From assembly GCA_021776735.1 (NCBI GenBank), contig JAJFFH010000042.1, positions 8,767 through 72,766 of the forward strand: a stretch of DNA of 64,000 bases, read 5' to 3'. The translations under genes were made by a program, and so were the position numbers. Position 1 is the first letter of the stretch. The number at the start of each line of letters is the position of its first letter. The stretch comes from Planctomycetota bacterium (lineage in GTDB: Bacteria > Planctomycetota > PLA2). Under the pieces are notes generated by a model. The model ran no database searches, was not told the origin of the DNA, and saw nothing but the letters and a program-made list of their open reading frames with translations. Below, piece by piece: positions 6,903-63,797 of the stretch.

Positions 6903-7005
6903 GCCAAGGAGTTGCCGCCGCCGCCCGAAGTGTCCATGATTATTCTGGATTGTCCTGCCGATCCGTTCAGCCGTGGTGACCCGGGCACTTCGCGCCCCGG
7001 CCCCC

Positions 7006-43815: not shown

Positions 43816-43912
43816 CTCACACTCTTAGTTACCGTGGATCGCGAATCGAGTTCAAACGCTCACGTCCGGAGCGCGCGTGGCCCGCAGACGTCCCCGGTCA
43901 GGTCCGCTTCGG

Positions 43913-45182: not shown

Positions 45183-45191
45183 GAGGATCCG

Positions 45192-45551: not shown

Positions 45552-45556
45552 CGCGC

Positions 45557-49045: not shown

Positions 49046-49611
49046 GCCGCGCCACCCGTCATAAGCTGGTAGAGGCGCGCCCGCGCGTAGGACCACTCGC
49101 GGTGGACGGTGCGCCGCGAACGCTTTAGCGCGAGCGCGGTCTCGTCCACGCTCAGGCCCGCGAAGAAGCGGAGCCGGACGACACGGGCGAGGCCCTCGTC
49201 TTCCGTCGCGAGCTTTGCCAGGGCGTCGTCCACCGCGAGGATGTCGATGGCGTCGCCCTCCGACGCGAGGTCGATGAGGCCGAGGGGCAGCCGCGCGGCA
49301 CCGCCCCCCCGCTTGTCCCGGCCGCGCGCACGGGCGTGCTCGACGAGGATGCGGCGCATCGCCTCCGCGGCAGCGCCATAGAAGTGCGCGCGGTTCTCCC
49401 AGGCGACATCGGGCGCGTGGACGAGGCGAAGGTAAGCCTCATGGACAAGCGCGGTCGTCTGCAGCGTGTGATCGGCACGCTCCTTGGCCATGCGGTGTTG
49501 CGCGATCTTGCGGAGCTCGCCGTAGACGGCGTCGAAGAGCGGCGCGGAGACATCGCGCCCGGTCGTTGCGTCGCGCAACAGATTGGTCACGTCCTCGGGG
49601 CCGGCCGTCAT
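49042..49611 (-). CDS. ECF sigma factor, TIGR02999 (kinase-associated) type
   Basis: LFDAVYGELRKIAQHRMAKERADHTLQTTALVHEAYLRL and C-terminal ETALALKRSRRTVHREW; start placed at MTAGPEDVTNLL. Confidence 0.8.
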   Translation of the reverse strand: MTAGPEDVTNLLRDATTGRDVSAPLFDAVYGELRKIAQHRMAKERADHTLQTTALVHEAYLRLVHAPDVAWENRAHFYGAAAEAMRRILVEHARARGRDKRGGGAARLPLGLIDLASEGDAIDILAVDDALAKLATEDEGLARVVRLRFFAGLSVDETALALKRSRRTVHREWSYARARLYQLMTGGAA

Positions 49612-49915
49612 CGCGCGAATGATAGCGAATCCGCCCCGAAACGGATCGCCGCAGGGTGTGGGGACAGGCGGATCGCGACCGGACAACGAGGGCCGCGAGT
49701 TCACAGGAGATCGTCTCCGTCATCTTCCTCGGGGTCGAATCAATGCCCCCACTGTGCCGCCCCCGGCGCGCGGCTGCGAATGATCGACTTCCCGGGACCG
49801 CTCATGCTCGACCTGAGGCGCGTCCAGCGGACCGCCTTCGACCACGGACAGCGATGCGGCGCCCTGTTTCGAGAGACCGACGCAGACTCAGCCAGTAGAA
49901 TCCCGAGTTCGAGAC

Positions 49916-49951
49916 GACCCCGTAGCTCAGCTGGATGGAGCGGCTGATTCC
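49916..49951 (+). other. tRNA-Arg 5'-half pseudo-copy (positions 1-35, 1 mismatch)
   Basis: GACCCCGTAGCTCAGCTGGATgGAGCGGCTGATTCC matches the tRNA at 62114 through the anticodon-loop base 35, then diverges. Confidence 0.7.
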
Positions 49952-50147
49952 CAGTACTCGCGGCGCGCCCCCGGTTGGCACTGAGTAACCCCGGATTGGT
50001 GACGACTTCAGCTGTTTCGTGAGGGGAATCTCGCGTGCAACCCCGGCGGCCCCTGGTTAGCCCCGGACACTCGCCTTGCTATCGCCTTGTTCCGAGAGAG
50101 CGCCGGTTCCCGTCTGCGAAGCTCGACCGACTTGAGAGACTCTTGGA

Positions 50148-51074
50148 GTGACAAACGCGATCCTCGAGACCATTGGTGACACGCCGGTTGTGAGGCTCCA
50201 ACGCCTCCCGGCTCAAGACTCCGGGGCCGTGTTCGTCAAAATCGAAGGGATGAACCCCACCGGCTCGTACAAGGATCGAGTCGCGCTTGCGATGGTCGAT
50301 GGAGCCGAAGCTGCCGGGTTCCTCACACCGTTCACGCGACTCTTGGAGTGCACGGGCGGCAGCACGGGCACCTCACTCGCCTTCGTCTGCGCCGCGAAAC
50401 AGATCCCGTTGACGATCATCTCTTCGGACGCCTACGCGAGCGCGAAGCTACACTCCATGACGGCTCTAGGAGCCGAGCTTCTTGTTGAGCCAAGCGTGGG
50501 GGGAATGGTCACGCCTGACCTCTGGCCGAGGATGCGTAAGCGTGCCGAGGCACTGGTTGCGGCAGGTACTCACCACTGGGTCGATCAGTTCAACAACCCA
50601 CACGCACTCGGAGGCTATGCCGCGATGGGTATCGAGCTGGTTGAGCAGGTCAACCAGCGCATCGACGCGTTCTGTGGATGTGTCGGGACTGCGGGCATGA
50701 TCGTCGGGGTCGGAAGCGTCGTGCGCGAACACTATCCGGACGCGCAGGTGATCGCGTTGGAACCGGACACGTCTCCGGTGCTTTCCGGTGGATCGCCGGG
50801 AGCACACGGGATCGACGGTACGGCAGCCGGATTCGTGCCTCCGTTGTTTGACCGCGAGGTCGTAACGAGCGTGCAAGCACTATCCGAAGCGGGCGCGCGC
50901 AAGATGGCGAGACGCCTGGCGAACGAGGAAGGCATCTTCGCAGGGACATCCAGCGGCATGAACGTCATGGCTGCGCTTGAACTTGCGGAACGACTCGGAC
51001 CAGATTCGACTGTGGTGACGGTCGCGTGCGACACCGGTTTCAAATACCTGCAAGAAGACCTGTTCCGGCTGTAA
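50148..51074 (+). CDS. PLP-dependent cysteine synthase family enzyme
   Basis: NPTGSYKDRVA lysine motif; GTSSG; ~58% GC. Confidence 0.8.
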   Translation: MTNAILETIGDTPVVRLQRLPAQDSGAVFVKIEGMNPTGSYKDRVALAMVDGAEAAGFLTPFTRLLECTGGSTGTSLAFVCAAKQIPLTIISSDAYASAKLHSMTALGAELLVEPSVGGMVTPDLWPRMRKRAEALVAAGTHHWVDQFNNPHALGGYAAMGIELVEQVNQRIDAFCGCVGTAGMIVGVGSVVREHYPDAQVIALEPDTSPVLSGGSPGAHGIDGTAAGFVPPLFDREVVTSVQALSEAGARKMARRLANEEGIFAGTSSGMNVMAALELAERLGPDSTVVTVACDTGFKYLQEDLFRL

Positions 51075-51158
51075 TCAACCGGCGACTTCGATCGTCGCGC
51101 ATCTTGATGCGGAACGGCTGTGCGCTACTGGCAACGAGTCATCGGCGCCGACACTTCG

Positions 51159-52103
51159 TTACGGGGATCGAGTTCCAGGAGGAAGCGATTCAATGATGTT
51201 CCACGCCTTCTCGCACGGCCCGACCCGTAATCGCCGGAGAGCCAACGCCAGAGCAGCTATATTGCGTTTGCGCTTCGCGCACTCCGATGCCAGGTCTAGT
51301 AGTGCCGCGGGTACCGCATGCCTGTCAGGATCCCTTGAATGTTGTCCCTTGCGCACTGATGTCACTAGCCAACTGAAGCGCTCCTCGCCCGTCGCGAGGG
51401 TTGACGCCTCCCAGTAGGCGCGAGCACTGGACGCGGCCGGGCGCAAACTTCGCCGGTAGATCCCAAGCGAGCGCATGCGGGCTGCTCGAGCTCGTCTGCG
51501 ATCCCGATCGTTGAGAGAGTCCTCTCTCAACCAACTCGCCGCTGTCAACTCCAGCCCAACGGTGGCGAGCAGCGTGATATACCGCAGATTGCGGTCGCCG
51601 CGTAGTCGCCCGGCGAGCCTCCGAGCGCAGCGCAGGAGATACTCTCGCGGCGCGTCTCGACGCTTGGCTGCCCCGGAGAGCGCCTTGAGCGACTTGCGCG
51701 TTTCGCCTGTCCGGGAGTAGGCGTCGCCAAGATATGTGAGAGCGATCCCGGTCTCCTTCTTCGCAATGGCCTCGACAAGCACCTCGATCGCTCTCGTCGA
51801 GTTTCGTGCCCGAAGATAAAGGTAGCCGGCGCTCTCCAGCGATTCGTGAGTCCGAGTGCGACCCGGGAGGTCCATGATCCAGTCCGCTGCAGCCGCCGGA
51901 GTCTTGAGCACGCCCCGCATCCGAACCACTTCGCGAACGACGCCGGCAACGTGCGTGGAGCCGGCCGCGATCGTCGACGTCATCAGCGAGCGCCCGTCCG
52001 AGGCACGTTCCACGGCCTCCCGGTATGCTCCGCGCCGGATTTGCTCGTCGAGGCTCTCCGCTTGCCAGCCGACGAGCAGGAGGACCAGTGTCGCTACTTG
52101 CAA
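51159..52103 (-). CDS. hypothetical helical protein
   Basis: Overlaps the upstream gene stop; lower GC; last gene of the putative 5-gene minus-strand operon. Confidence 0.45.
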   Translation of the reverse strand: MQVATLVLLLVGWQAESLDEQIRRGAYREAVERASDGRSLMTSTIAAGSTHVAGVVREVVRMRGVLKTPAAAADWIMDLPGRTRTHESLESAGYLYLRARNSTRAIEVLVEAIAKKETGIALTYLGDAYSRTGETRKSLKALSGAAKRRDAPREYLLRCARRLAGRLRGDRNLRYITLLATVGLELTAASWLREDSLNDRDRRRARAARMRSLGIYRRSLRPAASSARAYWEASTLATGEERFSWLVTSVRKGQHSRDPDRHAVPAALLDLASECAKRKRNIAALALALRRLRVGPCEKAWNIIESLPPGTRSP

Positions 52104-53092
52104 AAGTGCGCCATCCAGTTCCGCGCGTCCGCGCCAAGGTCCGTACCGACAAGGTCGGCGAGGGCGGCGCGCACCTCCGGCCCGTCGACAGGATGACCGA
52201 GAGCGTCAAGGAGTGCCTGCAGGTGAGACGTGTCGCCCGATCGAAGTGCGCGAAATGCCGTCCTCAAGCGCGGGTCGTGCGGCGGTGGGACCTTGGCGGG
52301 CTTTCCCTTCAGTCGCTGCTTCCACCACGCACCGCGCTTGGGATCGATCGCTGCCGCAATTTCGAGATAGGCGGGACCGTCTTCCACGTAGAGCCGGACG
52401 AGGGCGAATGCGGATCGCGGAGACTCCTTCAGCGCCGCGAACCACTTCGGGCTCGGCGCCGCCTCACAGAGGAGGAGCAGCACCGCGGGTGCGAGTGGAT
52501 CGTCACGCTTCAGGTACTCGATCGGACTCAGACCTCCGCGAAGTTCTCGCATGACCCCGCGTCGGGTTCCGCTTGCGAGTGCTAGGGCCCGAGCAGGCGC
52601 GACCTTGACGAGCGCGAGCTCGCACGCTCTCTGCAGTTCACCCTCCTCTATCGCGAACTCTTTGCGCCAGAGCAATGTTCCGTCGGGAGCGAGGATGACG
52701 TGTTGGGGGGAGATAATCTCGTTGTCGTTCGACCAACGCTGCAGCGAGAGATTCAGAACATCACGGTGAGTTCCGCAATCCGTGGATCCATAACGCGCGC
52801 ACGTTCCGTCTCGATCGTGATCGTGGGGATTCGCAACCAAGCAGATCATCGGCCGAGCCGCCGCAACAAGACCGTGGCTCGCGTACGCGTTCGACATCGC
52901 AGCGTCACGGCCGCGGGCACGGTCAAGCGCGTTGATCACGATCAGGATTGGCCGCCCTTCATTCTGTGCTCGCGTAACACTACCCCTAAGTCCACGGGCC
53001 CACTGGATGCGCTTTGCGGACTCCGTGGCTCCGATTTGGTGCGGTGATAGGAGCGCACATAGGATCAGGGAGCACGCAAGCCGCGTTGTCAT
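52094..53092 (-). CDS. secreted thioredoxin-fold-like protein lacking CxxC (noncatalytic paralog) with helical C-terminal domain
   Basis: Signal peptide; RPILIVINALDRARG...QHVILAPDGTLLWRKE resembles the Thioredoxin_7 scaffold with the CxxC replaced; ATGA overlap with ECF fusion 3. Confidence 0.45.
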   Translation of the reverse strand: MTTRLACSLILCALLSPHQIGATESAKRIQWARGLRGSVTRAQNEGRPILIVINALDRARGRDAAMSNAYASHGLVAAARPMICLVANPHDHDRDGTCARYGSTDCGTHRDVLNLSLQRWSNDNEIISPQHVILAPDGTLLWRKEFAIEEGELQRACELALVKVAPARALALASGTRRGVMRELRGGLSPIEYLKRDDPLAPAVLLLLCEAAPSPKWFAALKESPRSAFALVRLYVEDGPAYLEIAAAIDPKRGAWWKQRLKGKPAKVPPPHDPRLRTAFRALRSGDTSHLQALLDALGHPVDGPEVRAALADLVGTDLGADARNWMAHFCK

Positions 53093-56055
53093 CGCTCGCC
53101 CTCAAACCGAAACCGTAGCAGCGCTGCCACGCCCGACTTGACGGTGATCGGCGCACTTCCGTCCTGTAACCACCGACCGTCCCGGAGGAACCAGAGAGTC
53201 GCGCTGTACTTGCCCGGCCCAACCTTGGCGAACTCGAACTTACCTGCCGCGTCCGCCTTCACCGGCGCGAGGCTGCGATCGACCGCTCGCGACATCAGGG
53301 TTGACTCGCTCATGTCATACTTTGGTACAAGTCGAATACGTGCCGACCCACCGAGGCCAACATCGACTCTCCCGTGAACGGTGCCAGGCGATTCGAACTC
53401 CACCCTTACTGACGTCGTTCGATTTGCGGCTGCCACGTACGGAACCGCTCTCCATCCATGACCGCGCGCTCGAACCAGAACTACGCCGGCCCCAGGTGTC
53501 ATGGGTCGCGTTGCCCGGCCGTCATACTTGACGAAACCGGATCCCTGTGGAATCCCCAGTCCGCGCTCCGTAGTCACCGCGTACTCCAAGGATTTCTCAT
53601 CCGCGCCGCGGACGATCAACTTCAGCCTCGCTGGACCACTGGGCAGTCGAATAGCGGCCTCGGAATCCAAGGCAACTGGCACTCGCAGCGCGGCGACGAT
53701 CGGGTCCTTCTTCGCCGAGAGTGAGTACGGACCAGGAGCCAGGTCGTCGAACCGAAACGCACCATCTGCAGAAGTCGAAGTCATTCCCGGGCTCGGTCCG
53801 TGAAGTGTGACGGTGAGTCCGGGGACCGGCTCACCGGCCCCGTCAAGAACTCGGCCGTACACCGATCTACCACCTCCCCGAGCGACGCGAATACGCCTGA
53901 ACTCTCCGGCTCCAATCGCAAAGTGCCGGCGGAGTGAGCCCGCGCAAACGAGATACTCGCCGGCGGGAAGTCGATCGAATTCAACGTGCCCTTCTTTGTC
54001 TGTCGTCGATAGAGATTCGTGCTCCAACGCGAACAGAAAGGCCTCGTAGCGGCGGGGCTCGTCTTCGCGTGCTTTCACTCGGCGCGTGAGCGACACGGTG
54101 GCGTCAGAGACCGGGTGACCGGAGACCTCGTGAACTTCCAGAGAGACGCGACTGGATTCTGTGCCGACGAGTTCCACCGACACTCGCGTTCCGGGCCGGA
54201 CGTCAAGGCCATCGAGGAGGGCCGGAGCGCTGCCCGGTATCAGCGCAGCCAACGTACTCGCCCCACTGGACGAAACATGGGACGCGCCTATCAGCTTGAC
54301 TTCAACTTCAAAGCGGCCGTTCGGATCCGACCACCCGTGAACGACCGGGAGGCCAACCAGCGCTCTCGCAAAGATGCGCTGACGGAATAGTAGGAGGGGG
54401 GCATCGACAACCTCATCGCCACGCGAGTTCCGAACCACGCCATTGATGTACATCGAATGTCGCAACCGAACTTCTGCGCCTCGGACTGGCAGCAGCTCGT
54501 ACCCCGGCGCAGAGACGAAACACGTCGAGTATTCACGCTGTACCGGGTATCGGATCAGCCCATCGGCGTTCGCAACAAGTCGCCGTCGCGCAATCTCCTG
54601 TCCGTACACCGCGCCGCGGCCGGCTGAACTCGCAACGATGAGATACGCATCTGGTATGGGTGCACCAGAAGTGGCCGAGACCGCGCGCACGGTACGGGTC
54701 CTGACTTCTTGAAGAACGATCTCGATCATGCCGCGGTCCGTGAGATAGCTCTGTTCCACATAGGCCAGGCCCGCCTGCAGTGGGACAATGGAGAGGCGAA
54801 ATCGATGTGAGGGGGCCGACGGAAGGCGCGCGAGCCCTCGTGCATCGGTCACTGTCTCAGCGAAGACCTGGCGAGCGACACCGCCAAGATGCAACGTCAC
54901 GACTTGGATTGTCACGCGCTCCACCGGTCTTCCGCTCGTCTCACGCACACGAATCTCGACAGGATTCTGTTCGCGCACGGTAATCGTCGATTCGTCGCCC
55001 GGGCGGATTGACCCGACAAACGCGGGCGCGAATCCCTTGGCGCTGACGGTCACACCGTGCCGAGCGCCACCCGTTCGCTTGAAGGAAAACTGCCCATCCG
55101 AACCTGTCACAGTCTCGAACGGCCTCCGCCTTTCGCGTTCCCGTCTCAACACTGCGGCTGGCGCGACAAGTGATCCGCCGCGGACCTCCGTGGAGAGATA
55201 GACCAACCGGACTCGGGCCCCAGGCACCCCTTTCCCAGCTTCGTCGACAACCCGTCCCTCATAGCCACTCGTAGCGGGGTCAGTTTCGTCCCTCGCAGGA
55301 GGAGCGATCACAGTTTCCGCGTGTGTCGGGTCACGGCCGGGAGTTCGCGTTCGCGCCCCGTAGTCTGCAACGCGCTCCACTTCTGCTCCGCCGCTGACCC
55401 ACATCGCAACTCCCACGCCGAGGACTCCGAACACGGCTGCGCCCAGTGCACCGAGCCGGAACCATGCCGAGTCAGTCACGGCGGGACTCGTACGCACGGT
55501 CTCGCGCGAAGGCAGCCCCCAGAGTGCGACGACAGGCAACCAAGCGTGACGCTTACCGTCGTAAGCGCGATCAAGTGCATCTCGCAGCTCCGAAAGCGCG
55601 CGGTATAGCCTTGACTCCACCGTCCGAACCGAGATCGACTCTGATTGCGCAATTTCCGTAGGTGTGCGGCCGTCAAGGTAGCGGTAGACGATCATCGACT
55701 GATAGGGTTCTCGGAGCGAGTAGACGGCCGCAACCACTCGCTTCTGCAGTTCGATCTTCGCCGCTACATCTTGGGTCGACGGGGACGTTGCGCTCTGTGC
55801 GACAGCCAGCTCGCGACGGCGCCGCCTTCCCCGTGTCCGATGGGAGCGCTTGGCCAAGTTTCGCGCGATCGTTGCCAACCAACCGCGAACGTTGGTCTGG
55901 GTCTTCAGGGGTCGCTCGAGGGCGACTAGAATCGTCTCGTGCGCCAAGTCTTCCGCGTCGTTGAAGTCGACGACGAGTCCGCGGGCGAGCCTTCGCACGA
56001 ACTCGAAGTGATTCCCGAGTTCCTCGGGCGGGAGCAGCGGCCGCGGTCCATTCAT
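53089..56055 (-). CDS. ECF sigma-70 domain fused to TM helix and periplasmic carboxypeptidase-regulatory-like repeat array (paralog 3)
   Basis: DLAHETILVAL (sigma2), QSMIVYRYLDGRTPTEIAQSESISVRTVESRLYRAL (sigma4), TM helix, GRVVDEAGKGVPGARV-type repeats. Confidence 0.8.
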   Translation of the reverse strand: MNGPRPLLPPEELGNHFEFVRRLARGLVVDFNDAEDLAHETILVALERPLKTQTNVRGWLATIARNLAKRSHRTRGRRRRRELAVAQSATSPSTQDVAAKIELQKRVVAAVYSLREPYQSMIVYRYLDGRTPTEIAQSESISVRTVESRLYRALSELRDALDRAYDGKRHAWLPVVALWGLPSRETVRTSPAVTDSAWFRLGALGAAVFGVLGVGVAMWVSGGAEVERVADYGARTRTPGRDPTHAETVIAPPARDETDPATSGYEGRVVDEAGKGVPGARVRLVYLSTEVRGGSLVAPAAVLRRERERRRPFETVTGSDGQFSFKRTGGARHGVTVSAKGFAPAFVGSIRPGDESTITVREQNPVEIRVRETSGRPVERVTIQVVTLHLGGVARQVFAETVTDARGLARLPSAPSHRFRLSIVPLQAGLAYVEQSYLTDRGMIEIVLQEVRTRTVRAVSATSGAPIPDAYLIVASSAGRGAVYGQEIARRRLVANADGLIRYPVQREYSTCFVSAPGYELLPVRGAEVRLRHSMYINGVVRNSRGDEVVDAPLLLFRQRIFARALVGLPVVHGWSDPNGRFEVEVKLIGASHVSSSGASTLAALIPGSAPALLDGLDVRPGTRVSVELVGTESSRVSLEVHEVSGHPVSDATVSLTRRVKAREDEPRRYEAFLFALEHESLSTTDKEGHVEFDRLPAGEYLVCAGSLRRHFAIGAGEFRRIRVARGGGRSVYGRVLDGAGEPVPGLTVTLHGPSPGMTSTSADGAFRFDDLAPGPYSLSAKKDPIVAALRVPVALDSEAAIRLPSGPARLKLIVRGADEKSLEYAVTTERGLGIPQGSGFVKYDGRATRPMTPGAGVVLVRARGHGWRAVPYVAAANRTTSVRVEFESPGTVHGRVDVGLGGSARIRLVPKYDMSESTLMSRAVDRSLAPVKADAAGKFEFAKVGPGKYSATLWFLRDGRWLQDGSAPITVKSGVAALLRFRFEGER

Positions 56056-56119
56056 GGGTCACCCCCATTAGAAGCCCGCGAACGAGATTGACACTGCACG
56101 CTCCTCGGAGATTTGGCTG

Positions 56120-57862
56120 TTAGCGATCGCAATCCACCACCAACTCCAACGACGTGTTCTTGTCCTTGACCCTCCATTCCGCGGTGGCCCTCGCTCGGCC
56201 ACGACGGGCTTCGAGTCTCAGCTCACGGTGCTTTTCATCAACCTCCACGACGTATCGGCCCCGACTGTCGGTGCGGCCCCATGTGAGTTCGCGCGCGCGC
56301 GGATCTACGGGGTAGACGCGTACCATCACGTTTGCGAGTGCGATCCCCTCCGGGGTTCGCACGGCACCCTCGATGCGGCGCACAACGCCGAGCTGCACTT
56401 TCAGAGTCTCCGTTCCCGAACCCGGGAGCCGTCGTTCGAAGGCCCGCACGGCGAGGAACCCTCTGCAACGAACGCCGATTCGCACAGTTGTATTGGCTTC
56501 GCTTGTGATGACTACGGTGCCGCGGGCGTCGGTCCGATAGGGGACCGGCTCCATCAGTGCATAAAAGGGCAAGTTTGCCGTGCCGAATTTCAACAACGTG
56601 TTGGGCACGATGGTCACGATCGCGTCTGGCAACGGCTCCTTCTTTGGTCCGACCACCGAGATCTTGAGAGACCCGGCGGAAGTTCGTCGCAGCATGGCCT
56701 CCGTCTCGCTACCCGGCTCGCCGGTAACACCAAATTGGGCGGCGTTCCGCATGCGCCCCGACGGATTGACGCGAACGACGAAACGCGCATGCGGGACCAC
56801 ACCACGAAACTCGTAACGGCCGTCCGCTGAAAGGCGGACGACTGAGTGTGTTCTCACGCCCAGATTCGGAACCGGAAACGAGAGCGTGGCAAGCTCAACG
56901 AGTGTCTTCGTCCCGCGAGCACCCTGGGCTCGGCCGCGTAGAGTGACGGGCTTCTTGAGCGTAACTGTCGCGACGCCGTCGATCGTTGAGCAGGGCTGAA
57001 TCCCGTTCGGCATGACCTTGAGAAGCGCGACGCCGCCTGCCGCGTCGACGAGTTCGACCGTGGCGTAGTTTGGGAAACTCGGTAGCGAGAACTTGCCGTC
57101 GCGCCCTCGGATGAGCCGGTGGCCGTCCGCATCAGTCAACCCGACGACACGGATTCGAACACTCTGGGCTGGCTTTCCGTTTGCAAGCACTACCTCCAGC
57201 GGGTGCGTGCGCCCGTGCCCAACAACAGTCGATTGCCTCGACGCGGAATCGGCGTCGACAGCGAACTCCGATACAGACGTTCGCTCGTACCCCCACGCGT
57301 CGATGGAGCCGTCGTACCGCCCCGGCATCACGCCCTCGAACACGGCGGTGCCTTTGGAGTCGGCTCGGGTTGAGACCGCTCGCACACCTCGGCGGCGCGG
57401 AGTGGGCCGGATGCTGACGATTGCATGTGGAACCGGGCCACCGGCAGGACTCACGACCTGTACAACCACTTGGCTGCCCGGACGCACAGTGATCGTGACC
57501 GGGTCGCCGGAACGAACCCCCTCGACCTCACCTGCTGCCCGAGACCCGGCGTGCTGAGCGCGCAGCCGCATCGAAAACGCTGTAGGACCGGCCAACTGCA
57601 CGGTCCCGTCCTTTCCGGTCGTGTCCGGAGCTGACCGTTTCGACCACCAGTGCCTGTGCGGTACGGTCCGCGTGATTCGCACGGTAGCGCCCTGTAGCGG
57701 CCGCCCATTAACATCAACGACCGTTACGATCGTGCGCCGGTCATCTTCGGCTGCAGCAGCTGTGAGCAGAGAGAACAGCACGAAGATCACGAGGCACACT
57801 CGTGCGCCGTTCCTAGCGGTCGGCATGCTGCCCACCCTTCTTTTCATCCGCGCTCTCAGCAA
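56120..57862 (-). CDS. secreted/membrane-anchored protein made of carboxypeptidase-regulatory-like beta-sandwich repeats
   Basis: N-terminal hydrophobic segment; repeats such as VVDVNGRPLQGATVRI and VVSPAGGPVPHAIVSI. Confidence 0.7.
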   Translation of the reverse strand: MLRARMKRRVGSMPTARNGARVCLVIFVLFSLLTAAAAEDDRRTIVTVVDVNGRPLQGATVRITRTVPHRHWWSKRSAPDTTGKDGTVQLAGPTAFSMRLRAQHAGSRAAGEVEGVRSGDPVTITVRPGSQVVVQVVSPAGGPVPHAIVSIRPTPRRRGVRAVSTRADSKGTAVFEGVMPGRYDGSIDAWGYERTSVSEFAVDADSASRQSTVVGHGRTHPLEVVLANGKPAQSVRIRVVGLTDADGHRLIRGRDGKFSLPSFPNYATVELVDAAGGVALLKVMPNGIQPCSTIDGVATVTLKKPVTLRGRAQGARGTKTLVELATLSFPVPNLGVRTHSVVRLSADGRYEFRGVVPHARFVVRVNPSGRMRNAAQFGVTGEPGSETEAMLRRTSAGSLKISVVGPKKEPLPDAIVTIVPNTLLKFGTANLPFYALMEPVPYRTDARGTVVITSEANTTVRIGVRCRGFLAVRAFERRLPGSGTETLKVQLGVVRRIEGAVRTPEGIALANVMVRVYPVDPRARELTWGRTDSRGRYVVEVDEKHRELRLEARRGRARATAEWRVKDKNTSLELVVDCDR

Positions 57863-59627
57863 CCCTCGGTCGAGTCGCGCGCAGGTACGTCGCCTTGGCG
57901 TCCGCGCGGAGAAGCGAGCGCCAACGCGCGGGCCACTTCTTGGGCTCGCGTCCCCGGTACATCTCGACCGGTTTCACCGTGAAGTCGTAGATTCTCGCGC
58001 GCGTGGGCAGCACGACTCGCATTTCATCGTCCGTGGTGGACGGGCGTGCCTTCCGCACTCGCATGATCTCGACGGAGACAAGGCTGTCGGAGAGCGAACT
58101 CGCGTTCCGAAGTTGGACGACGAGAACCGGGAAGAGATAGCCGCCCCAGTCGCCGTAAACGGCGAACCCGAGGGTTCGAAAACCCTCGTCGTTCGGCAAG
58201 CGGGGAGGACCGCCCTTCATTGCTGCCGGCGCGGCGGATCGTCCCCACACGATCGGCAACCCGCTCGCTGAGCAGTGGATCGACTTGTCGCTCTTGACAC
58301 CGAGTTGCCAGACCCCTTTCGTCACATAGGAGTCCGCGATTATCGTCGCGGCCCCGCCAAAGGGCAGAGGCGCTAGAAGGACTGGAGGGCGACTGGTTGT
58401 GCCTGCTTGACCTGCAGGCAGTATCTGCACCGAGTTGCGGTTCTCGGAAAACAGAATCGCGAACTCGGGGGTGGAGAGCAACTGCTGGCGTTGGATGGCG
58501 CGGCCGTCGGTGAGATTGGGCGCGAGACGGTCACCAAGAAGCTTCGGCGTCAGCAGCTTCGTGACATCGATTCGAGCCACCTCCAAGAATCGAACTCCAT
58601 GACTCAGCATCGTCACGTCCCGGATCCCCGCGTGACCCGGAAAGACGGGACCGACTGACTCGGCGCTCGTCTCAAAGGCCCCGGCCTTTGGTTTCTGGAT
58701 CAGGACCGCCTGGATTTCCTTCCAGAGTTCCTCCACGGTTGACTCGCGAGCAGACTGCAGTTTCGCGCCAGCCGCCTGGACGCGGACCAAGAGGCCGGCA
58801 AATCGATTGCCGTCCACGAGTTTCCAAGGCACCATCTGCCCGACCACACTCATCTCCACGAGGGAGTTCTTCAGCGACTTGACATCGTTCGGCCACCGCT
58901 CCGCGAATCTACCAAGTGCCTGTCGTGCCACCCCGCGGTCTCCGGGCGATGAGCGGAATTCAACGCGGCTTCGCGGCTGGAGCTTAGGTTGGCCCGAGAC
59001 CCGGCGCGCTGGCCGAAGGTTCTTCCGGGCATCAGCGAGCTTCACCCGGTGGTTCCTGCTGGCCGCTGCATAGGCCTTGAGGAAGGCGACCTCAGAGGAG
59101 CTTGAGTCGAAGACCCTCTGTGCGACCTCTACAACGGCATCGACTCGTCTAAAGTAGTTCAGCAGTGTGTGGCAGTGCGCGGCAGCGTCAACCCACCGCT
59201 GCTCGTTCTGTGCTTCGATCATCGCTCTCTGAACCGGCGATGCGAGGGCCTGCACAAACTGTTCAGGCCCCGGCCCGCCCGCGCTGTTCAGGAGCACGGT
59301 TCCGGTGGGGTCCATGAGCACCAACGTCGGGAAAGCGCTGACGTCAAATCTCTTGCGAAGTCGTACTTTGGCCGCCGCTCTTCCATCCTTGACCTTCAAG
59401 CACACGAGGCGATCCAGGAACTCCCGCACATCACGGCGCGGAAACGTACGCAATTCCATTGCGCGGCAGGCGCCTCACCAGTCTGCGTCGAAGTCGATGA
59501 ACAGTAGCTTTCCCTCTTTCACAGAGCGCTCGCGAGCACGTTCGAAATCGGTCTCCCACTTGATCTCCTCGGCATGGGACCAGGCGACGAAGAGGAGCAG
59601 GACGGTCAGGGTCTTGATAATGCGCAT
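57813..59627 (-). CDS. candidate selenoprotein: secreted thioredoxin-fold domain with WUGAC motif (in-frame TGA at 59475-59477) plus ~530-aa C-terminal domain
   Basis: From ATG 59627 (GGAGA 8 nt upstream): MRIIKTLTVLLLFVAWSHA EEIKWETDFERARERSVKEGKLLFIDFDADW-[TGA]-GACRAMELRTF..., continuous with the 548-aa ORF. The TGA replaces the first Cys of WCxxC. A 6-bp hairpin CGCAAT-GGA-ATTGCG starts 12 nt after the TGA. Confidence 0.6.
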
Positions 59628-59788
59628 GAGTGTCTCCGAGCAAGACTGCCGCACGACACGGCTGGCTGCTCACGTAGATAAGCCCGCGAACGGCATCGAG
59701 ACTGCACGAAAGACACCGCCGACCGTGTCGGGGTCTCTGATAGCGACAGAGTCGATCGGCTAGAAGGACGGGAGGAGGCTGAAAACTC

Positions 59789-60721
59789 GTGGATCTCGAA
59801 AAGTTCAAGGAGGAACTCGTGGATCAGGCTGTCGGCCGAGTCGCCTTGTTCCATTGCCAGCACAGTATCAAGTGCTGCCTCGCGATCCACCGCCTGCTTG
59901 ATCGTTTCCCCGACTGGGGAGTCGATGCGGGCACTCGGCTGGCGGACACTATGGGCGAGGAACCGCCCGTCGATGCGCTCGGCGATCGTCTCCCTCACGA
60001 CCTTGATTGGGGCGGAGATTGCAGAGGGATCCTGGAGAAGGGGCTCTTTGCCGCCGCCTACGTCGCGATGCGAAATTTGGTGAGGGACTCGTCGCTCGAC
60101 GCGGTCCTGTCCGAGTATGTCGATCGCGCGTGCAACGACCCGGAACACCTTGGCCACAACGTGTCGATTCTCTGCGCGTTTCTCGGCATGCTGCCGCTGC
60201 TCGAAGGGCGAGACGATCGCCTCGGGCTGTTCCTCGACCGCCTCACCGAGTTCGTCACGGCGGCGTTCCACAACATCCAGAATCGCCTTGTCTTCGACGC
60301 GCGCCCCATGCCCGATCACGAGCCGACCCAACAGGAGGTGCTGCGGGCAGCGTTCAAGCAGCCGGGCTACTTCGGGCACCAACTTCTCACGTCCGTGTGG
60401 TCGCGACGTTACCGGGGCCAGTTGGGCGCGGACGGGTACAGCAACGCGATCCGAGGGATCTGGGAGACGTCCCACTGGGAGATACCCGAGAAGAACCGTT
60501 TTTCGATCGAGCCCACGGAACGTCCCCTGGACGACGAGCGATTCGCCGAAGCCGTGAGGGGACTGGCCCTCCACGGCCCTAAGAACATCCACCGGGTCAC
60601 CCTTGCCGAGGCTCTCGTGGACCTGTGGGACCAGGCGGAGGACGACGCGACGCGCGCACGGGCGTTCTCGGCCGCGGAGCGCTTTAGTCAGTCGGCGCGT
60701 CCGGTCGCGACATCCGCGTAG
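59789..60721 (+). CDS. conserved hypothetical protein, paralog B (HSIKCCLAIHRLLDRFP family)
   Basis: ~70% identical to the 33374..34309 product. Confidence 0.7.
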   Translation: MDLEKFKEELVDQAVGRVALFHCQHSIKCCLAIHRLLDRFPDWGVDAGTRLADTMGEEPPVDALGDRLPHDLDWGGDCRGILEKGLFAAAYVAMRNLVRDSSLDAVLSEYVDRACNDPEHLGHNVSILCAFLGMLPLLEGRDDRLGLFLDRLTEFVTAAFHNIQNRLVFDARPMPDHEPTQQEVLRAAFKQPGYFGHQLLTSVWSRRYRGQLGADGYSNAIRGIWETSHWEIPEKNRFSIEPTERPLDDERFAEAVRGLALHGPKNIHRVTLAEALVDLWDQAEDDATRARAFSAAERFSQSARPVATSA

Positions 60722-60752
60722 TCTCTAGAAGACAATCGGACGCCGCTAGTCA

Positions 60753-61481
60753 TCACGAGGCTCCGACTCCGCCCGAAAGGCGGTACGCCGAGTAGTGAAT
60801 ATTTGCGCCAAGCGAGCGCCGCTCTCCGAACGCCGCGAGTTCACTTGTCAATGCCGGGAATGGATCCGCGGCGCCGTAGTTTTGCTCAAACGCTGCGTGG
60901 CGTCGGGCGTTCGACAGCAAGACGTGAGCGAGTTCTTCCACGGTGACTTCCAGCGTCACCCGCTCTTCACGGACAACGGTCTCGACGAAATTGTCGACAT
61001 CGGAGAAGTTCACGCGGTAGTCATATGTCGGTGCAGCGTCGGGCAGCAGGACGCCAAGCTGGCGCAAGACATCGCCCAACAGCACGTCGAAGTCATAGGG
61101 AATCACCAGCGCAGGCCGGCGACAGACCCTTTCCAACTCTGCGACCAGCGCGGCAGACTTCGTGTAATACAGCGACCCCGCGAATGTAACCACGTCCACG
61201 GAGTTCGCCGCGAGCAGGATTCTCTCTCCGGCGCCGCAGAGGTACGTCACGCGGTCGTGCGGGACTGCCTGATCGAGCATCGATTGGGCGGGTTCCAGAC
61301 CATGGACGTGCCGACAGTACTTGGCCAACGCGACCGAAGAACGCCCCGTGCCACAACCAATGTCCAATCCATCGCTAAACGACTCACGCTCTGACAGAAC
61401 GCGAGCCAGAATCAAACGATGGAGTGGCGGTCGATAAGACGAGTAGTGATTGGCGACGGACTCGTTGTACTGTTCGCTCAT
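60753..61481 (-). CDS. class I SAM-dependent methyltransferase
   Basis: LDIGCGTGR motif I; start at MSEQYNESVANHY. Confidence 0.75.
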   Translation of the reverse strand: MSEQYNESVANHYSSYRPPLHRLILARVLSERESFSDGLDIGCGTGRSSVALAKYCRHVHGLEPAQSMLDQAVPHDRVTYLCGAGERILLAANSVDVVTFAGSLYYTKSAALVAELERVCRRPALVIPYDFDVLLGDVLRQLGVLLPDAAPTYDYRVNFSDVDNFVETVVREERVTLEVTVEELAHVLLSNARRHAAFEQNYGAADPFPALTSELAAFGERRSLGANIHYSAYRLSGGVGAS

Positions 61482-61612
61482 GGTCGGAAGGTGCCCTCCA
61501 CGCGGCCGAGGATCGAAGCACAGACGTCGTAAGTGTAATCCCGGAAAGTGCGAAGCGCGTACCGAGACCCGACGAACCATGATGCGGCACGGCATTCACC
61601 GTGGAGAACGCG

Positions 61613-62008
61613 ATGGCACACGACGAGGCGCGAACCAGTTTCGAACGATGCGAGGCCGCGGGCGACTTCGCGGAGCGGTTCTACGAGATCTTCCTGAACT
61701 CGTCGCCCGAGATCGCGCCCCTCTTCGCGCAGACCGACTTCGAGAAGCAGCGCAAGCTCCTCGGGGCCACTGTCTACATCACGGTCACGCGCGACGTCGA
61801 CGACCCGAAGGCGCGGGAGGCGCTGGAAGAGGATTGGCCGGTCGCACGCGCGCTCGCAGCTCGACATCAAGCCGAGCTCTACGAACTGTGGCTCGACGGC
61901 GTCTGCGAAACGGCGAAGCGCATGGACCCCGTGTGGACGTCCGAGGTGGAGGCTGCGTGGAGGCACCAGCCCCGGCCCGGCATCGCGCTGATCACGTCGC
62001 TCTATTGA
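61613..62008 (+). CDS. bacterial globin-like protein
   Basis: FAERFYEIFLNSSPEIAPLF..KQRKLL pattern typical of the globin fold. Confidence 0.6.
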   Translation: MAHDEARTSFERCEAAGDFAERFYEIFLNSSPEIAPLFAQTDFEKQRKLLGATVYITVTRDVDDPKAREALEEDWPVARALAARHQAELYELWLDGVCETAKRMDPVWTSEVEAAWRHQPRPGIALITSLY

Positions 62009-62113
62009 AGCGGGCGTTATGCCCTCATCGCCGAAGGACTGAACCCGCGCGCAGCATGGACACGCGGCACTTCCTGACGAAGTGCGGCCGGCGCGATAGA
62101 ATCACCGGCCGAC

Positions 62114-62187
62114 GACCCCGTAGCTCAGCTGGATAGAGCGGCTGATTCCTAATCAGCAGGTCGCAGGTTCGAGTCCTGCCGGGGTCG
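62114..62187 (+). tRNA. tRNA-Arg (anticodon CCT)
   Basis: Acceptor GACCCCG/CGGGGTC, D-arm GCTC..GAGC, anticodon stem GCTGA/TCAGC with loop TTCCTAA, T-arm GCAGG TTCGAGT CCTGC, discriminator G. Confidence 0.85.
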
Positions 62188-62332
62188 CTTGATCACGAAC
62201 GTGGGGGGTAGGGGATGGCCGGAGCCAACAAGCGCAGCGAGTTGGCGCAGGACAGATCCGTAGGGGGGACGCTGTCCCCCCTGAAAAGCTGCGCCCCGCG
62301 AAGCGTCTGCGCAGCGAAGCGCAGCATGCGTG

Positions 62333-62362
62333 AGCAGGTTCGAGTCCTGCCGGGGTCGCCAC
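62333..62362 (+). repeat. duplicate of tRNA-Arg 3' end (T-arm, acceptor, discriminator, CCA), att-like
   Basis: GCAGGTTCGAGTCCTGCCGGGGTCGCCA identical to tRNA positions 49-73 and followed by CA. Confidence 0.75.
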
Positions 62363-62932
62363 GCAATACGACCGCGGCCAGCCGTTTCTCGCTGCAGAAA
62401 CATGGCCTCCCCCATTGGCAGCAATCCCGAACCCGCTCACCTGAGTACGACGCACTCGCGTCGACGAGGCCGTGCGTGCACTTCTTCCCGAGTTGGCCAA
62501 TGTCGACCAAGGAGCGCGAGCCCCAGGAAAACGCCAGTCATGGCATGGAGGTAAGTCTCGGCGTCTTCATATCGGCTCACTCGGATCCCGTGATGGCTGG
62601 CTTCGATCTCTCCTGTCTAAACACGGGAACCAACACGAAGTTGCGCGAGAGGCGCCCTTAAGATCAACTTCAGGACTGGGGCGCTGAGCCAGGAGGCAGG
62701 TTCGCCGGGCCATCGGCCCATCTGTTCCTGGAACCCATCGGTCCCGACTGCGGTGAGCTCCTCCCGGGTTCGGCACCGATGCGGAGCGCGTGCGCCCTCA
62801 CCAGGTACCGAGACGGGAGGTACCGAGGCGGGAATGGTCGTCGCATCTTGAAGCGCTGGGTCAGCTCAACCTGCGACGACCATTCCCGCCCCGTCCTGAA
62901 CAACTGGTGCGCGCGCTAGTAAGATCGCCGCC

Positions 62933-63601
62933 ATGAACACGAAGCAGGTGATGGCCCGACTCGACGAGTTGGGCGACGAGAAGCGGCGCGCCTTTAACGC
63001 CAAGCGCGGGGCGGGCGACAACCAGTTCGGCGTCAAGACCGGCGACATCCGCAAGCTGGCCAAGGAGATCAAGGTCGACCACGAACTCGGTCTTTCGCTC
63101 TGGGAGACCGGCAACGCGGACGCGCAGATGCTCGCCATCCTGCTCGTGCGCCCCAAGGACCTCGACGCGAAGCAACTCGCCACGATGGCCAAGGAAGGCA
63201 CCTGCGAGTGGGTCGCGGACTGGCTGAACTCCTATGTGATCAAGAAGCACCCGGACAAGGAGTCGTTGCGCGAGAAGTGGATGAAGTCGAAGGACGCGAT
63301 GACCAAGCGCGCGGGTTGGAGCATGACCTCGGAGCGGATCGCCAAGAACCCGGACGGGCTCGACCTCGATGCGCTGCTCGATCGCATCGAGAAGGAGATG
63401 CCCAAGGCCGCGCCCCAGGCCCAGTGGACGATGAACGTGTGCCTGGCCAACATCGGCATCCACCACGCGGAGCACCGCGACCGCGCCCTCGCGATCGGCG
63501 AGGCGTTGGGGATCTACCGGGACTATCCGGTGTCGAAGGGCTGCACCTCGCCGTTCGCGCCGATCTACATCAACGAGATAGTGAGCCGACGGAAGGCGTA
63601 G
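62933..63601 (+). CDS. DNA alkylation repair protein (AlkD/AlkC HEAT-like repeat family)
   Basis: Helical repeats; family-typical RAFNAKRGAGDNQFGVKTGDIRKLAKE. Confidence 0.7.
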   Translation: MNTKQVMARLDELGDEKRRAFNAKRGAGDNQFGVKTGDIRKLAKEIKVDHELGLSLWETGNADAQMLAILLVRPKDLDAKQLATMAKEGTCEWVADWLNSYVIKKHPDKESLREKWMKSKDAMTKRAGWSMTSERIAKNPDGLDLDALLDRIEKEMPKAAPQAQWTMNVCLANIGIHHAEHRDRALAIGEALGIYRDYPVSKGCTSPFAPIYINEIVSRRKA

Positions 63602-63797
63602 AGAGCGCAGCAGAGGTGCAAGCCGCAACTCACCGAACGACCTCCTCTCCCTTCGCAGAAGTACCGAACCGGGTGCAACGTCGTCACAAACCCGCCGACG
63701 GTGAGCCAACAAGCGCAGCGAGTTGACGTAGGACAGACCCGCAGGGGCATTACCCGTACGCCATCCTGGACGTCGATCTCGAGTGCTTGGCCGTGCC

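What the first reader, a model, noticed from the sequence alone, without database searches (positions are those of the whole stretch)
49916..62362. tRNA-Arg(CCT) flanked by a 5'-half copy 12 kb upstream and a 3'-end+CCA copy 150 bp downstream, bracketing a lower-GC block without integrase
The intact tRNA is at 62114-62187. A 36-nt copy of its 5' half (to anticodon position 35) is at 49916-49951. A 28-nt copy of the T-arm, acceptor 3' strand, discriminator and CCA is at 62335-62362. The ~12-kb interval between the 5'-half copy and the tRNA is ~58-60% GC versus ~70% elsewhere. It carries the selenoprotein-ECF operon, a cysteine-synthase-like gene, paralog B of a duplicated gene, a methyltransferase and a globin. 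No integrase, excisionase or transposase is present. This looks like one or two decayed integrative elements that used this tRNA as attB. The 5'-half repeat is atypical, since most elements duplicate the 3' end.
Basis: partly seen in the sequence, partly recalled or inferred. Interest (0 to 1): 0.6.

Follow-up and report, generated by a model that had tools for sequence, protein, structure and literature searches.

The report
tRNA-Arg integration scars, no integrase
A tRNA-Arg gene is flanked by exact copies of its own front half and tail end, the usual scars of mobile DNA that inserts into tRNA genes. The 12 kb between the front-half copy and the gene is most likely an inserted island of a known but uncommon type that has no recombinase gene of its own.

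Summary
tRNA-Arg(CCT) lies at 62114-62187. A 39-nt copy of its 5' part (one mismatch) lies at 49913-49951. A 28-nt copy of T arm, acceptor strand and CCA lies at 62334-62361. Chance expectation for either repeat is 0.

Both copies end at the two classical crossover sites of tRNA-targeting tyrosine integrases: inside the anticodon loop and at the start of the T stem. Both have the orientation and side required of displaced fragments.

The GC claim is overstated: 63.0% against 67.3%, not 58-60% against 70%. A third-codon GC drop is real for seven of the nine genes.

No integrase or transposase domain was found in the genes or in six-frame scans of the gaps.

Five of nine metagenome contigs carrying the same 5' half show it cut at the anticodon loop and followed by a conserved junction and different cargo. 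None carries an integrase.

The 145-nt filler before the 3' fragment has a homologue at the equivalent place in one of these contigs.

No empty site was found. The sister species loses synteny 264 bases (49649 to 49913) left of the 5' fragment.

Verdict: integrase-less tRNA-integrated island of the rare 5'-fragment type, plus a minimal 3'-type scar. Known kind, moderate interest.

The parts
49896..49901 (+). TAGAAT, a -10-like hexamer 14 nt before the 5' fragment; presumed promoter of the displaced original gene
   Evidence: Read. The same TAGAAT/TGGAAT/TAGGAT box precedes every copy in alignment A1. The consensus scan did not call it, at 8 of 12 matches.
49913..49951 (+). Displaced 5' fragment of tRNA-Arg(CCT): GAC plus positions 1-36, one mismatch, ending after CC of the anticodon
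   Evidence: (D2)
49952..50147 (+). Left junction and leader. It starts CAGTACTCGCGGCGCGCC, resembling the junction in L007. Four CCCCGG motifs lie in a 27-nt imperfect direct repeat (49969-49995 and 50041-50067).
50148..51074 (+). PLP-dependent cysteine-synthase-family gene, GC3 0.72
51159..52103 (-). Unknown 314-aa protein with weak TPR-like similarity, GC3 0.70
52094..53092 (-). Unknown secreted 332-aa protein, GC3 0.69
53089..56055 (-). ECF sigma factor fused to CarboxypepD_reg repeats, 988 aa, GC3 0.66; paralogs at 3819-7010 and 40705-43824
56120..57826 (-). CarboxypepD_reg repeat protein, 568 aa as called, GC3 0.71
57813..59627 (-). Thioredoxin-like selenoprotein candidate: ATG at 59627, in-frame TGA at 59477-59475 in FDADW-U-GAC
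59789..60721 (+). Paralog B, 310 aa, 68% identical to 33374-34306, GC3 0.80 (host-like)
60753..61481 (-). SAM-dependent methyltransferase, GC3 about 0.69
61613..62008 (+). Globin-like protein, 131 aa, GC3 0.86 (host-like)
62074..62102 (+). Sigma-70-like promoter CTGACG-17-TAGAAT of the intact tRNA gene; in the model it was brought by the inserted DNA
62114..62187 (+). Intact tRNA-Arg(CCT); no encoded CCA, followed by CTTG
62189..62333 (+). X module: 145-nt strongly structured filler between the tRNA and its displaced 3' fragment. It is homologous, in reverse orientation, to L004 5166-5295.
   Evidence: fold z -4.5; Smith-Waterman z 15.7
62334..62361 (+). Displaced 3' fragment: T stem, T loop, acceptor 3' strand, discriminator and CCA, 28/28
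   Evidence: (D5)
62933..63601 (+). AlkD-like DNA alkylation repair gene, GC3 0.94. It is 91-92% nt identical to copies in unrelated contexts elsewhere, so it is possibly a further acquired module.
63703..63747 (+). Second, partial copy (45 nt, 91%) of the X module segment 62222-62266
   Evidence: (D1)

Best explanation
The tRNA-Arg(CCT) gene has been used at least twice as a site-specific integration target, and the window shows the scars.

Event A. DNA whose attachment site carried a promoter plus the first 36-39 nt of the tRNA recombined with the chromosomal gene inside the anticodon loop. The incoming promoter and 5' part (62074-62149) now complete the gene. The original promoter and 5' part were pushed 12.2 kb upstream (49896-49951). 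Everything between (49952-62110) is the inserted DNA. This is the minority '5'-fragment' configuration of tDNA islands.

Event B. A second element, whose site carried the T arm to the 3' end, recombined at the T stem/loop. The incoming 3' end lacks CCA and is followed by CTTG. The original 3' end, with its encoded CCA, was displaced to 62334-62361. Only a 145-nt structured remnant or mini-element (X) lies between.

Neither insert now encodes a recombinase. Either it was lost or it acts from elsewhere.

Shown: the repeats, their exact end points, their configuration, the absence of recombinase domains, the GC3 shift, and the recurrence of the same scars in related contigs.

Inferred: that a tyrosine integrase made them, which half of the present gene is incoming, and the order of events.
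For: 1. The repeats are exact and non-random.
2. The 5' copy ends within the 7-nt anticodon loop. The 3' copy starts at the first base of the T stem and runs to the gene end. These are the two symmetric crossover sublocations described for tDNA integrases (Islander Table 1 footnote).
3. The 5' fragment is upstream, the 3' fragment is downstream, and both are in direct orientation and are end fragments. This is what Islander's configuration, orientation and internal-fragment filters require.
4. The displaced 3' copy keeps CCA, as do the intact genes in L004, L008 and L009. The present gene end (CTTG) matches L010.
5. Of nine metagenome contigs with the identical 5' half, five have it cut at the anticodon loop. 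It is followed by a conserved junction (TTCCTAA|AGCGCGGGYGGC, or TTCC|CGGAACGCGGGCGGCC) and then unrelated cargo.
6. L004 has the full architecture: 5' half, 2.6 kb, then the intact tRNA. The region upstream of its 5' half is 87.6% identical to the region upstream of the intact gene in L008.
7. L003 and L006 share about 150 nt after the junction, including a 35-nt block that is 100% identical, despite different cargo. This is as expected of an att arm.
8. X (62189-62333) is homologous to the filler between two 5' fragments in L004 (z 15.7).
9. GC3 of seven of the nine genes is 0.66-0.73 against 0.82 +/- 0.05 elsewhere (p = 4e-4). No other 12.2-kb stretch is below 65.6% GC.
10. Two contigs of a sister species (89-91% nt) are collinear through the kinase and ECF genes and diverge completely from 49649 rightwards.
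11. An analogous integrase-less arrangement exists at tRNA-Pro in L021.
Against: - No integrase, excisionase or transposase domain was found in the window interval or in the cargo of L004, L006 and L003/L005. The defining enzyme was therefore never seen.
- No empty site was found in any collection.
- The sister-species break is 264 bases (49649 to 49913) left of the 5' fragment, so the fragment's own upstream DNA is not shown to be ancestral.
- Paralog B and the globin-like gene next to the tRNA have host-like GC3.
- Tetranucleotide distance of the block is within 1 sd of the window mean.
- The block's gene families (ECF fusions, CarboxypepD_reg, thioredoxin-like) also occur in the host part of the window and next to the ECF gene of the sister species.
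- In L004 the intact tRNA differs from the adjacent 5' half by a compensated base pair in the anticodon stem. A simple hybrid gene (new 5' half plus old 3' half) does not predict this.
Confidence: 0.6

Rival explanations
1. Non-autonomous cargo modules. The inserts at this tRNA were never self-sufficient islands. They are small cassette-like modules carrying a tRNA-derived attachment site, inserted and perhaps excised by a recombinase encoded elsewhere in the genome. This is conceptually like integron cassettes or Xer-exploiting elements, but with tDNA sites.
For: - All complete inserts seen lack a recombinase and several are small: window 12.2 kb; L004 2.6 kb (two genes); L003/L005 about 2.9 kb (one gene); X fillers of 130-145 nt; and the 1266-bp AlkD segment at tRNA-Pro in L021.
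- In L021 the segment starts and ends with two pieces that are contiguous in the tRNA. It looks like a circle opened in the T loop, with no overlap duplication.
- The junction and arm are conserved while the cargo differs.
- The AlkD gene is 91-92% nt identical across unrelated contexts.
Against: - No candidate recombinase was identified.
- Loss of integrase genes from old islands is common and would give the same picture.
- The sample is small: nine short contigs plus three others.
- AlkD homology stops at the ORF, so no shared att site is seen around it.
- The L021 filler shows no similarity to X.
Confidence: 0.2
2. Local rearrangement without site-specific recombination. An ancestral second copy of the tRNA-Arg gene, or a partial duplication of it, was truncated by deletions or illegitimate insertions. 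The 12 kb between is ordinary, fast-evolving chromosomal DNA.
For: - The block's gene families are also found in the host part of the window and in the sister species' neighbourhood.
- The genes closest to the tRNA are host-like in GC3.
- The k-mer signature is not anomalous.
- The synteny break is not at the fragment.
Against: - Random truncation does not explain a break in the anticodon loop in six independent junctions (the window plus five contigs) and a break at the first base of the T stem for the 3' copy.
- It does not explain the conserved junction sequence next to different cargo.
- It does not explain why each 5' fragment has its own, different promoter-proximal sequence.
Confidence: 0.1
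3. The 5' half is kept because it is used. The displaced tRNA promoter and 5' half serve as promoter and leader of the co-oriented cysteine-synthase-like gene (50148), or give a tRNA-half-like small RNA. This concerns retention, not origin, and is compatible with the best explanation.
For: - The -10 box is retained at 49896-49901.
- The PALP gene is on the same strand, 196 nt downstream, with no terminator-like site between.
- The 5' halves are 100% conserved in five contigs although the flanks diverge. L004 and L007 share the next gene at only 86.5% nt.
Against: - In L003, L004, L006 and L007 the next gene is on the opposite strand.
- Perfect 5' halves are equally explained by recent independent insertions.
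- No Rfam family matches, and with two sequences no covariation can be tested.
Confidence: 0.08
4. Interrupted or split tRNA gene: a group I intron in the anticodon loop, or halves joined in trans.
For: The break is in the anticodon loop. RNAalifold pairs the 5' acceptor strand with a G-rich stretch about 170 nt downstream in L003 and L006.
Against: - No intron or other RNA family was found in the window or in L003, L004, L006 and L007.
- No 3' exon follows within 1-4 kb.
- An intact gene is present.
- The pairing lies in a block without variation, so it is untested.
Confidence: 0.02

Closest known systems
tDNA-integrated genomic islands with a 5' tDNA fragment (Islander class; 159 of 3919 islands, PMC4383910)
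   Same: An intact tRNA gene has a cognate 5' end fragment upstream in direct orientation. The crossover is centred on the anticodon loop. The inserted DNA supplies the 5' part, and therefore a promoter, of the regenerated gene. The size is within 2-200 kb.
   Different: There is no tyrosine integrase inside, so Islander's integrase filter would reject it. No empty site is known. Composition is only mildly deviant.
Classical 3'-fragment tDNA islands at the T-loop/T-stem sublocation (about 96% of Islander islands have a 3' fragment)
   Same: A 26-nt identity block runs from the first base of the T stem to the gene end. The displaced fragment is downstream. The displaced copy keeps the ancestral CCA.
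   Different: Only 145 nt lie between the gene and the fragment. This is far below any autonomous element and below Islander's 2-kb minimum. It has no genes.
Integron gene cassettes and Xer-exploiting integrative elements (IMEX)
   Same: Cargo units have no recombinase of their own. They are short, carry one to a few genes, and have different cargo behind a conserved recombination site.
   Different: The sites here derive from a tRNA gene, not from attC/attI or dif. No IntI or Xer link was tested. The resemblance is functional only and rests on my general knowledge of those systems.
tRNA-dependent lysogeny of mycobacteriophages (PMC10865867; title and abstract only, seen)
   Same: Integration at a tRNA gene is combined with a tRNA gene supplied by the incoming element. 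This is one way to read the compensated anticodon-stem pair in L004.
   Different: No phage genes are present. In the window the present gene could be a hybrid. The displaced 3' fragment does not continue the 5' half, because 13 nt are missing between them.

Membership tests
tDNA-integrated genomic island (Islander signature) | Intact tDNA plus a cognate tDNA fragment on the same replicon, in direct orientation | tested here: met
tDNA-integrated genomic island (Islander signature) | The fragment is an end fragment on the correct side (5' fragment upstream, 3' fragment downstream) | tested here: met
   The 5' copy covers positions 1-36 and lies upstream. The 3' copy covers position 50 to the end and lies downstream. 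The rule is stated in PMC4383910.
tDNA-integrated genomic island (Islander signature) | Crossover at the anticodon loop, or at the T loop / T-acceptor junction | tested here: met
   Identity ends after CC of the anticodon and begins at the first T-stem base. In L003, L004 and L006 it ends exactly at the end of the 7-nt loop.
tDNA-integrated genomic island (Islander signature) | A tyrosine integrase gene (PF00589) within or overlapping the interval | tested here: not met
   Pfam and NCBIfam scans of all long ORFs and six-frame scans of the gaps found none. The same holds for related inserts.
tDNA-integrated genomic island (Islander signature) | Length 2-200 kb | tested here: met
   12.2 kb for the 5'-type interval. 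Not met for the 145-nt 3'-type interval.
Genomic island in general | Absent from close relatives, with an empty target site | tested here: inconclusive
   The sister species diverges from 49649 rightwards but shows no tRNA there. No contig joins the two flanks.
Genomic island in general | Deviant composition | tested here: inconclusive
   GC is 4 points lower and GC3 is lower in seven of the nine genes (p = 4e-4). Tetranucleotide distance is not an outlier.
Integron cassette array | attC sites with RYYYAAC...GTTRRRY structure after each ORF, and an intI gene with attI | tested here: not met
   No integrase was found. The 45-nt repeat contains GCCAAC...GTTGGC but is a 25-nt hairpin, seen in only two copies, and is not adjacent to ORF ends in the attC manner.
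Group I intron in a tRNA anticodon loop | Intron RNA fold followed by the 3' exon | tested here: not met
   Rfam found no intron family. No 3' half follows the 5' halves.
CRISPR-associated transposon homing spacer or CRISPR spacer copy of a tRNA | The tRNA-matching segment is flanked by CRISPR repeats, with cas/tns genes nearby | tested here: not met
   No repeats flank 49913-49951. No such domains are in the interval.
Prophage | Phage structural or replication genes; matches in viral collections | tested here: not met
   No phage-type Pfam domains were found. Three IMG/VR scans gave 0 hits. The PHROGs library was not run.

The most novel reading that the evidence does not exclude
In this uncultured, probably planctomycete lineage, tRNA genes may serve as docking sites for a population of recombinase-less cargo modules. 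These range from about 0.1 kb to 12 kb and each carries a tRNA-derived half-site: promoter plus 5' half, or T arm to 3' end. They would be inserted on either side of the gene by a recombinase acting in trans. That would be a tDNA-based analogue of a cassette system, and it would explain why none of the complete inserts seen (at tRNA-Arg and at tRNA-Pro) encodes an integrase.
Probability: 0.2. Interest if true: 0.7.

Novelty: new member of a known kind. Interest (0 to 1): 0.4.

Why it matters
As it stands this is a well-documented example of a rare configuration. The island replaces the promoter and 5' half of a tRNA gene rather than its 3' end. It occurs in a poorly sampled lineage, together with a minimal 3'-type scar at the same gene.

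It matters in three ways:
- It marks 49952-62110 as probably acquired. This includes a thioredoxin-like selenoprotein and an ECF-sigma operon.
- Island finders that require an integrase, or expect 3' fragments only, would miss it.
- If the repeated absence of integrases in related inserts is not simple decay, it points to trans-mobilised tDNA-targeting modules. That hypothesis can be tested directly with the reads of the source sample.

Tried and rejected
- **Exact tRNA in GTDB genomes.** The full 74-nt tRNA gave 0 hits in 185,579 species genomes. The 30-nt D-arm/anticodon part gave one hit, a Planctomycetota MAG with an ordinary intact gene. No empty site came from genomes.
- **Viral contigs.** The 5' half, the junction and the 35-nt arm block all gave 0 hits.
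- **Walking beyond the window.** The source contig is 73,241 bp, but only a Logan contig was retrievable. It covers window 45982-62178 and ends inside the tRNA. Two start variants of the AlkD gene were not on record. The DNA right of 64000 was therefore not seen.
- **Cluster-size argument.** All nine block proteins are singletons at 90% identity. However, six of six control host proteins are singletons too, so this says nothing. Rejected as evidence.
- **Ortholog of the sister species' neighbouring gene in the source genome.** The search returned nothing.
- **Contexts of PALP homologues** (79-81% identity). No tRNA and no shared neighbours.
- **Hidden recombinase among the unknown ORFs.** The sequences look TPR-like, thioredoxin-fold-like and of an unknown family. 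None has a recombinase-like hit. Structures were not predicted.
- **Similarity of the window's left junction or AlkD flanks to X or to other junctions.** Only the short junction resemblance was found, nothing significant.
- **Tandem duplication as the origin of the 3' copy.** Rejected, because the sequences after the two 26-nt copies differ at once.
- **The two fragments as the two halves of one split gene.** Rejected, because 13 nt (positions 37-49) are missing and the bases before 62334 do not match.

Full report
**1. Observation**

ARAGORN finds one tRNA in the window, tRNA-Arg(CCT) at 62114-62188. Rfam gives 62114-62187. The linear layout is:
- acceptor 1-7;
- D arm 10-26;
- anticodon stem 28-32;
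- loop 33-39 (TTCCTAA);
- stem 40-44;
- variable region 45-49;
- T stem 50-54;
- T loop 55-61 (TTCGAGT);
- T stem 62-66;
- acceptor 67-73;
- discriminator G74.

The gene is followed by CTTG, so CCA is not encoded.

The repeat finder and pattern searches confirm two partial copies.
- 49913-49951 equals 62111-62149: 39 nt with one mismatch, comprising three bases upstream of the gene plus positions 1-36.
- 62334-62359 equals 62163-62188, 26/26. With the next two bases this gives T stem to CCA, 28/28, at 62334-62361.

Shuffles give 0 expected matches for either copy. No further fragment above chance exists in the window.

**2. Where the copies end**

The 5' copy stops after the second C of the anticodon, inside the 7-nt loop. 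The 3' copy starts at the first base of the T stem and runs to the gene end. These are the two symmetric sublocations (anticodon-centred, T-stem region) at which tDNA-targeting tyrosine integrases cross over. The Islander paper summarises this and defines the island signature as a tDNA, a cognate end fragment on the proper side in direct orientation, and an integrase between them (PMC4383910).

Its Table 1 lists 3760 islands with a 3' fragment and 159 with a 5' fragment. The 5' configuration is therefore rare but known. It requires the incoming DNA to supply a promoter.

Both copies here are preceded by TAGAAT:
- 49896-49901, before the 5' fragment;
- 62097-62102, before the intact gene, where it is called as CTGACG-17-TAGAAT.

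Otherwise the upstream sequences are unrelated.

**3. Content and composition of the interval**

Genes:
- a cysteine-synthase-family gene on + strand;
- a five-gene minus-strand cluster, consisting of a thioredoxin-like selenoprotein candidate, a CarboxypepD_reg protein, an ECF sigma fused to CarboxypepD_reg repeats, and two unknown proteins;
- paralog B of 33374-34306;
- a methyltransferase;
- a globin-like protein (PA3967, E 1.4e-13).

No integrase, excisionase or transposase domain appears in any long ORF. None appears in six-frame translations of the four gaps either.

GC is 63.0% against 67.3% to the left. No other 12.2-kb stretch falls below 65.6%.

GC3 is 0.66-0.73 for seven genes against 0.82 +/- 0.05 for 30 other genes (p = 4e-4). 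Paralog B (0.80) and the globin-like gene (0.86) are host-like. Tetranucleotide distance is unremarkable. Composition therefore supports foreign origin only moderately, and the interval may be a mosaic.

**4. Relatives**

The genome is poorly represented. The exact tRNA is absent from 185,579 species genomes. The nearest genome hit is a Planctomycetota MAG.

The ECF sigma gene left of the interval has 94%-identical orthologues. Contigs L001 and L019 of this sister species are 89-91% identical in nucleotides to window 44659-49649. They then diverge completely and have no tRNA within 1.4 kb. A variable region therefore begins at 49650, 264 bases (49649 to 49913) left of the 5' fragment. This fits a hot spot but is not an empty site.

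**5. The same scar elsewhere**

A metagenome scan with the 36-nt 5' half returned nine contigs. Four carry the identical intact gene. Five carry the 5' half followed by non-tRNA DNA.
- In L003, L004 (= L011) and L006 the identity runs to the last base of the anticodon loop. It is followed by AGCGCGGGYGGC.
- In L007 it stops after TTCC and is followed by CGGAACGCGGGCGGCC.
- The window has TTCC|CAGTACTCGCGGCGCGCC.

L004 shows the whole architecture in order:
- a decayed first fragment (5137-5165);
- a 130-nt filler;
- a perfect 5' half (5296-5339);
- 2.6 kb carrying a Peptidase_M90/SEC-C gene and an AlkZ-like gene;
- an intact tRNA with CCA.

The region upstream of L004's 5' half is 87.6% identical over 89 nt to the region upstream of the intact gene in L008. 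This fits the fragment being the original gene start.

L003 overlaps L005 from the same sample. This suggests a 5' half, about 2.9 kb with one large ORF, then the tRNA.

L003 and L006 share about 150 nt after the junction, including a 35-nt block that is 100% identical at the same distance, but have different cargo. L004 and L007 share the first cargo gene (86.5% nt) but not the left flank.

None of the cargo proteins is a recombinase. No known RNA family, including introns, matches these regions.

**6. The 3' side**

The 145 nt between the gene and the 3' fragment fold far better than shuffles (z -4.5). Their reverse complement aligns with the L004 filler between its two 5' fragments (score 51, z 15.7 with dinucleotide shuffles). 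In both cases the end that starts CGCTTCGCT abuts the displaced fragment. A 45-nt part recurs at 63703-63747. X is thus a conserved small module tied to these scars. It could be an att arm left after deletion or a miniature element.

The gene after the 3' fragment is an AlkD-like repair gene with GC3 0.94. It belongs to a 47-member cluster at 90% identity. It is 91-92% identical in nucleotides to copies in L020, L021 and L022, with homology confined to the ORF.

In L021 it follows tRNA-Pro(GGG). A 25-nt copy (T loop CAAAT to CCA+GTTC) lies 76 nt after the gene. A 24-nt copy (anticodon loop to T loop TT) lies after AlkD. The two pieces are contiguous in the tRNA and bracket 1266 bp in permuted order. 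Again there is no integrase. This makes the right side of the window's tRNA look acquired as well, but I could not read beyond 64000.

**7. Interpretation**

The best-supported reading is two site-specific integration events at one tDNA.
- Event A is a 5'-fragment type event at the anticodon loop, bounding 49952-62110.
- Event B is a 3'-fragment type event at the T stem, bounding X.

The recombinase step is inferred, not shown.

The main unresolved point is why every complete insert seen lacks an integrase. Decay is the conservative answer. Trans-mobilised modules are the more novel one. I give these 0.6 and 0.2.

Random duplication or truncation (0.1) does not explain six junctions in the same loop, nor the conserved junction next to different cargo. 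An intron or split gene is excluded for practical purposes. Use of the displaced promoter by the co-oriented cysteine-synthase-like gene is possible, but it concerns retention rather than origin.

**8. Weak points**

- No empty site and no enzyme were found.
- The synteny break is offset from the fragment.
- The genes next to the tRNA are host-like.
- The gene families of the block are also present in host DNA.
- The compensated anticodon-stem pair in L004 does not fit a simple hybrid gene.
- A cluster-size test that seemed to favour foreignness failed its control and was dropped.

**9. Verdict**

This is a new member of a known kind: a tDNA island of the rare 5'-fragment class, integrase-less, with a tandem 3'-type scar. 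Interest is moderate (0.4). It would rise if read-level junctions or a trans-acting recombinase are found.

Noticed in passing
window 57813-59627 (-), TGA at 59477-59475: Thioredoxin-like protein with a signal peptide. Its reading frame continues through an in-frame TGA in FDADW-U-GAC. A hairpin CGCAAUGGAAUUGCG starts 13 nt after the UGA and could be a SECIS element. The public gene call splits it into 50 aa + 548 aa.
   Followed up: partly
window 62933-63601; L020 9999-10690; L021 9988-10667; L022 94-788: The AlkD-like gene is 91-92% nt identical across four unrelated genomic contexts, with homology ending within 10-26 nt of the ORF. It sits in a 47-member 90% cluster, while six control host genes of the window are singletons. 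It looks like a recently spread single-gene unit.
   Followed up: partly
L021 9564-10986: tRNA-Pro(GGG) is followed by a 25-nt copy of its T-loop-to-CCA end (9721-9745). After the AlkD gene comes a 24-nt copy of its anticodon-loop-to-T-loop part (10963-10986). The two pieces are contiguous in the tRNA, so the 1266-bp segment looks like a circle opened in the T loop. No integrase is present.
   Followed up: partly
window 62222-62266 and 63703-63747; L004 5166-5295: A structured module (X) contains a GCCAAC...GTTGGC hairpin and a G6...C6 hairpin. It is repeated (45 nt, 91%) on both sides of the AlkD region and is homologous in reverse orientation to the filler between two tRNA 5' fragments in L004.
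   Followed up: partly
L003 894-928 (-) and L006 2614-2648 (+): The 35-nt block GCGTGAGCTCCCGTCCGGGGGCTTCTGCGGGGGCG is 100% conserved at the same distance (111-145 nt) after the 5' half in two contigs with different cargo. It forms a GC-rich hairpin and could be an att arm site or a terminator.
   Followed up: partly
window 56072-56100 and 59680-59708: A 29-nt motif (86% identical) lies upstream of both the ECF-fusion gene and the selenoprotein gene on the minus strand. It is possibly a shared ECF-dependent promoter.
   Followed up: no
window 33374-34306 vs 59789-60721; 3819-7010 and 40705-43824 vs 53089-56055: Paralog pairs link the block to the rest of the window: an unknown 310-aa family (68% aa) and three large ECF-sigma fusion proteins (33-39% over the N-terminal part). 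The region 32-35 kb around paralog A is also low in GC (62-64%).
   Followed up: partly
window 62824-62893: A 28-nt inverted repeat (89% complementary, 14-nt spacer) lies 40 nt upstream of the AlkD-like gene.
   Followed up: no
L008 (locus strand) about 295-1373: An IS3-family transposase pair lies immediately upstream of an intact, identical tRNA-Arg(CCT). L005 carries a 138-nt remnant similar to it upstream of its tRNA.
   Followed up: no
window 45982-62178 (Logan contig SRR15505515_40605): An independent assembly of the same sample breaks inside the tRNA gene at about 62178. This is as expected if repeats or population variants meet there.
   Followed up: no
window 49042-49704 / 45557-49096 and L021 13492-16294: An ECF sigma (PF07638) followed by a Ser/Thr kinase with AAA and TPR domains is a conserved gene pair in this lineage. 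The kinase gene is the compositional extreme of the window (72% GC).
   Followed up: no
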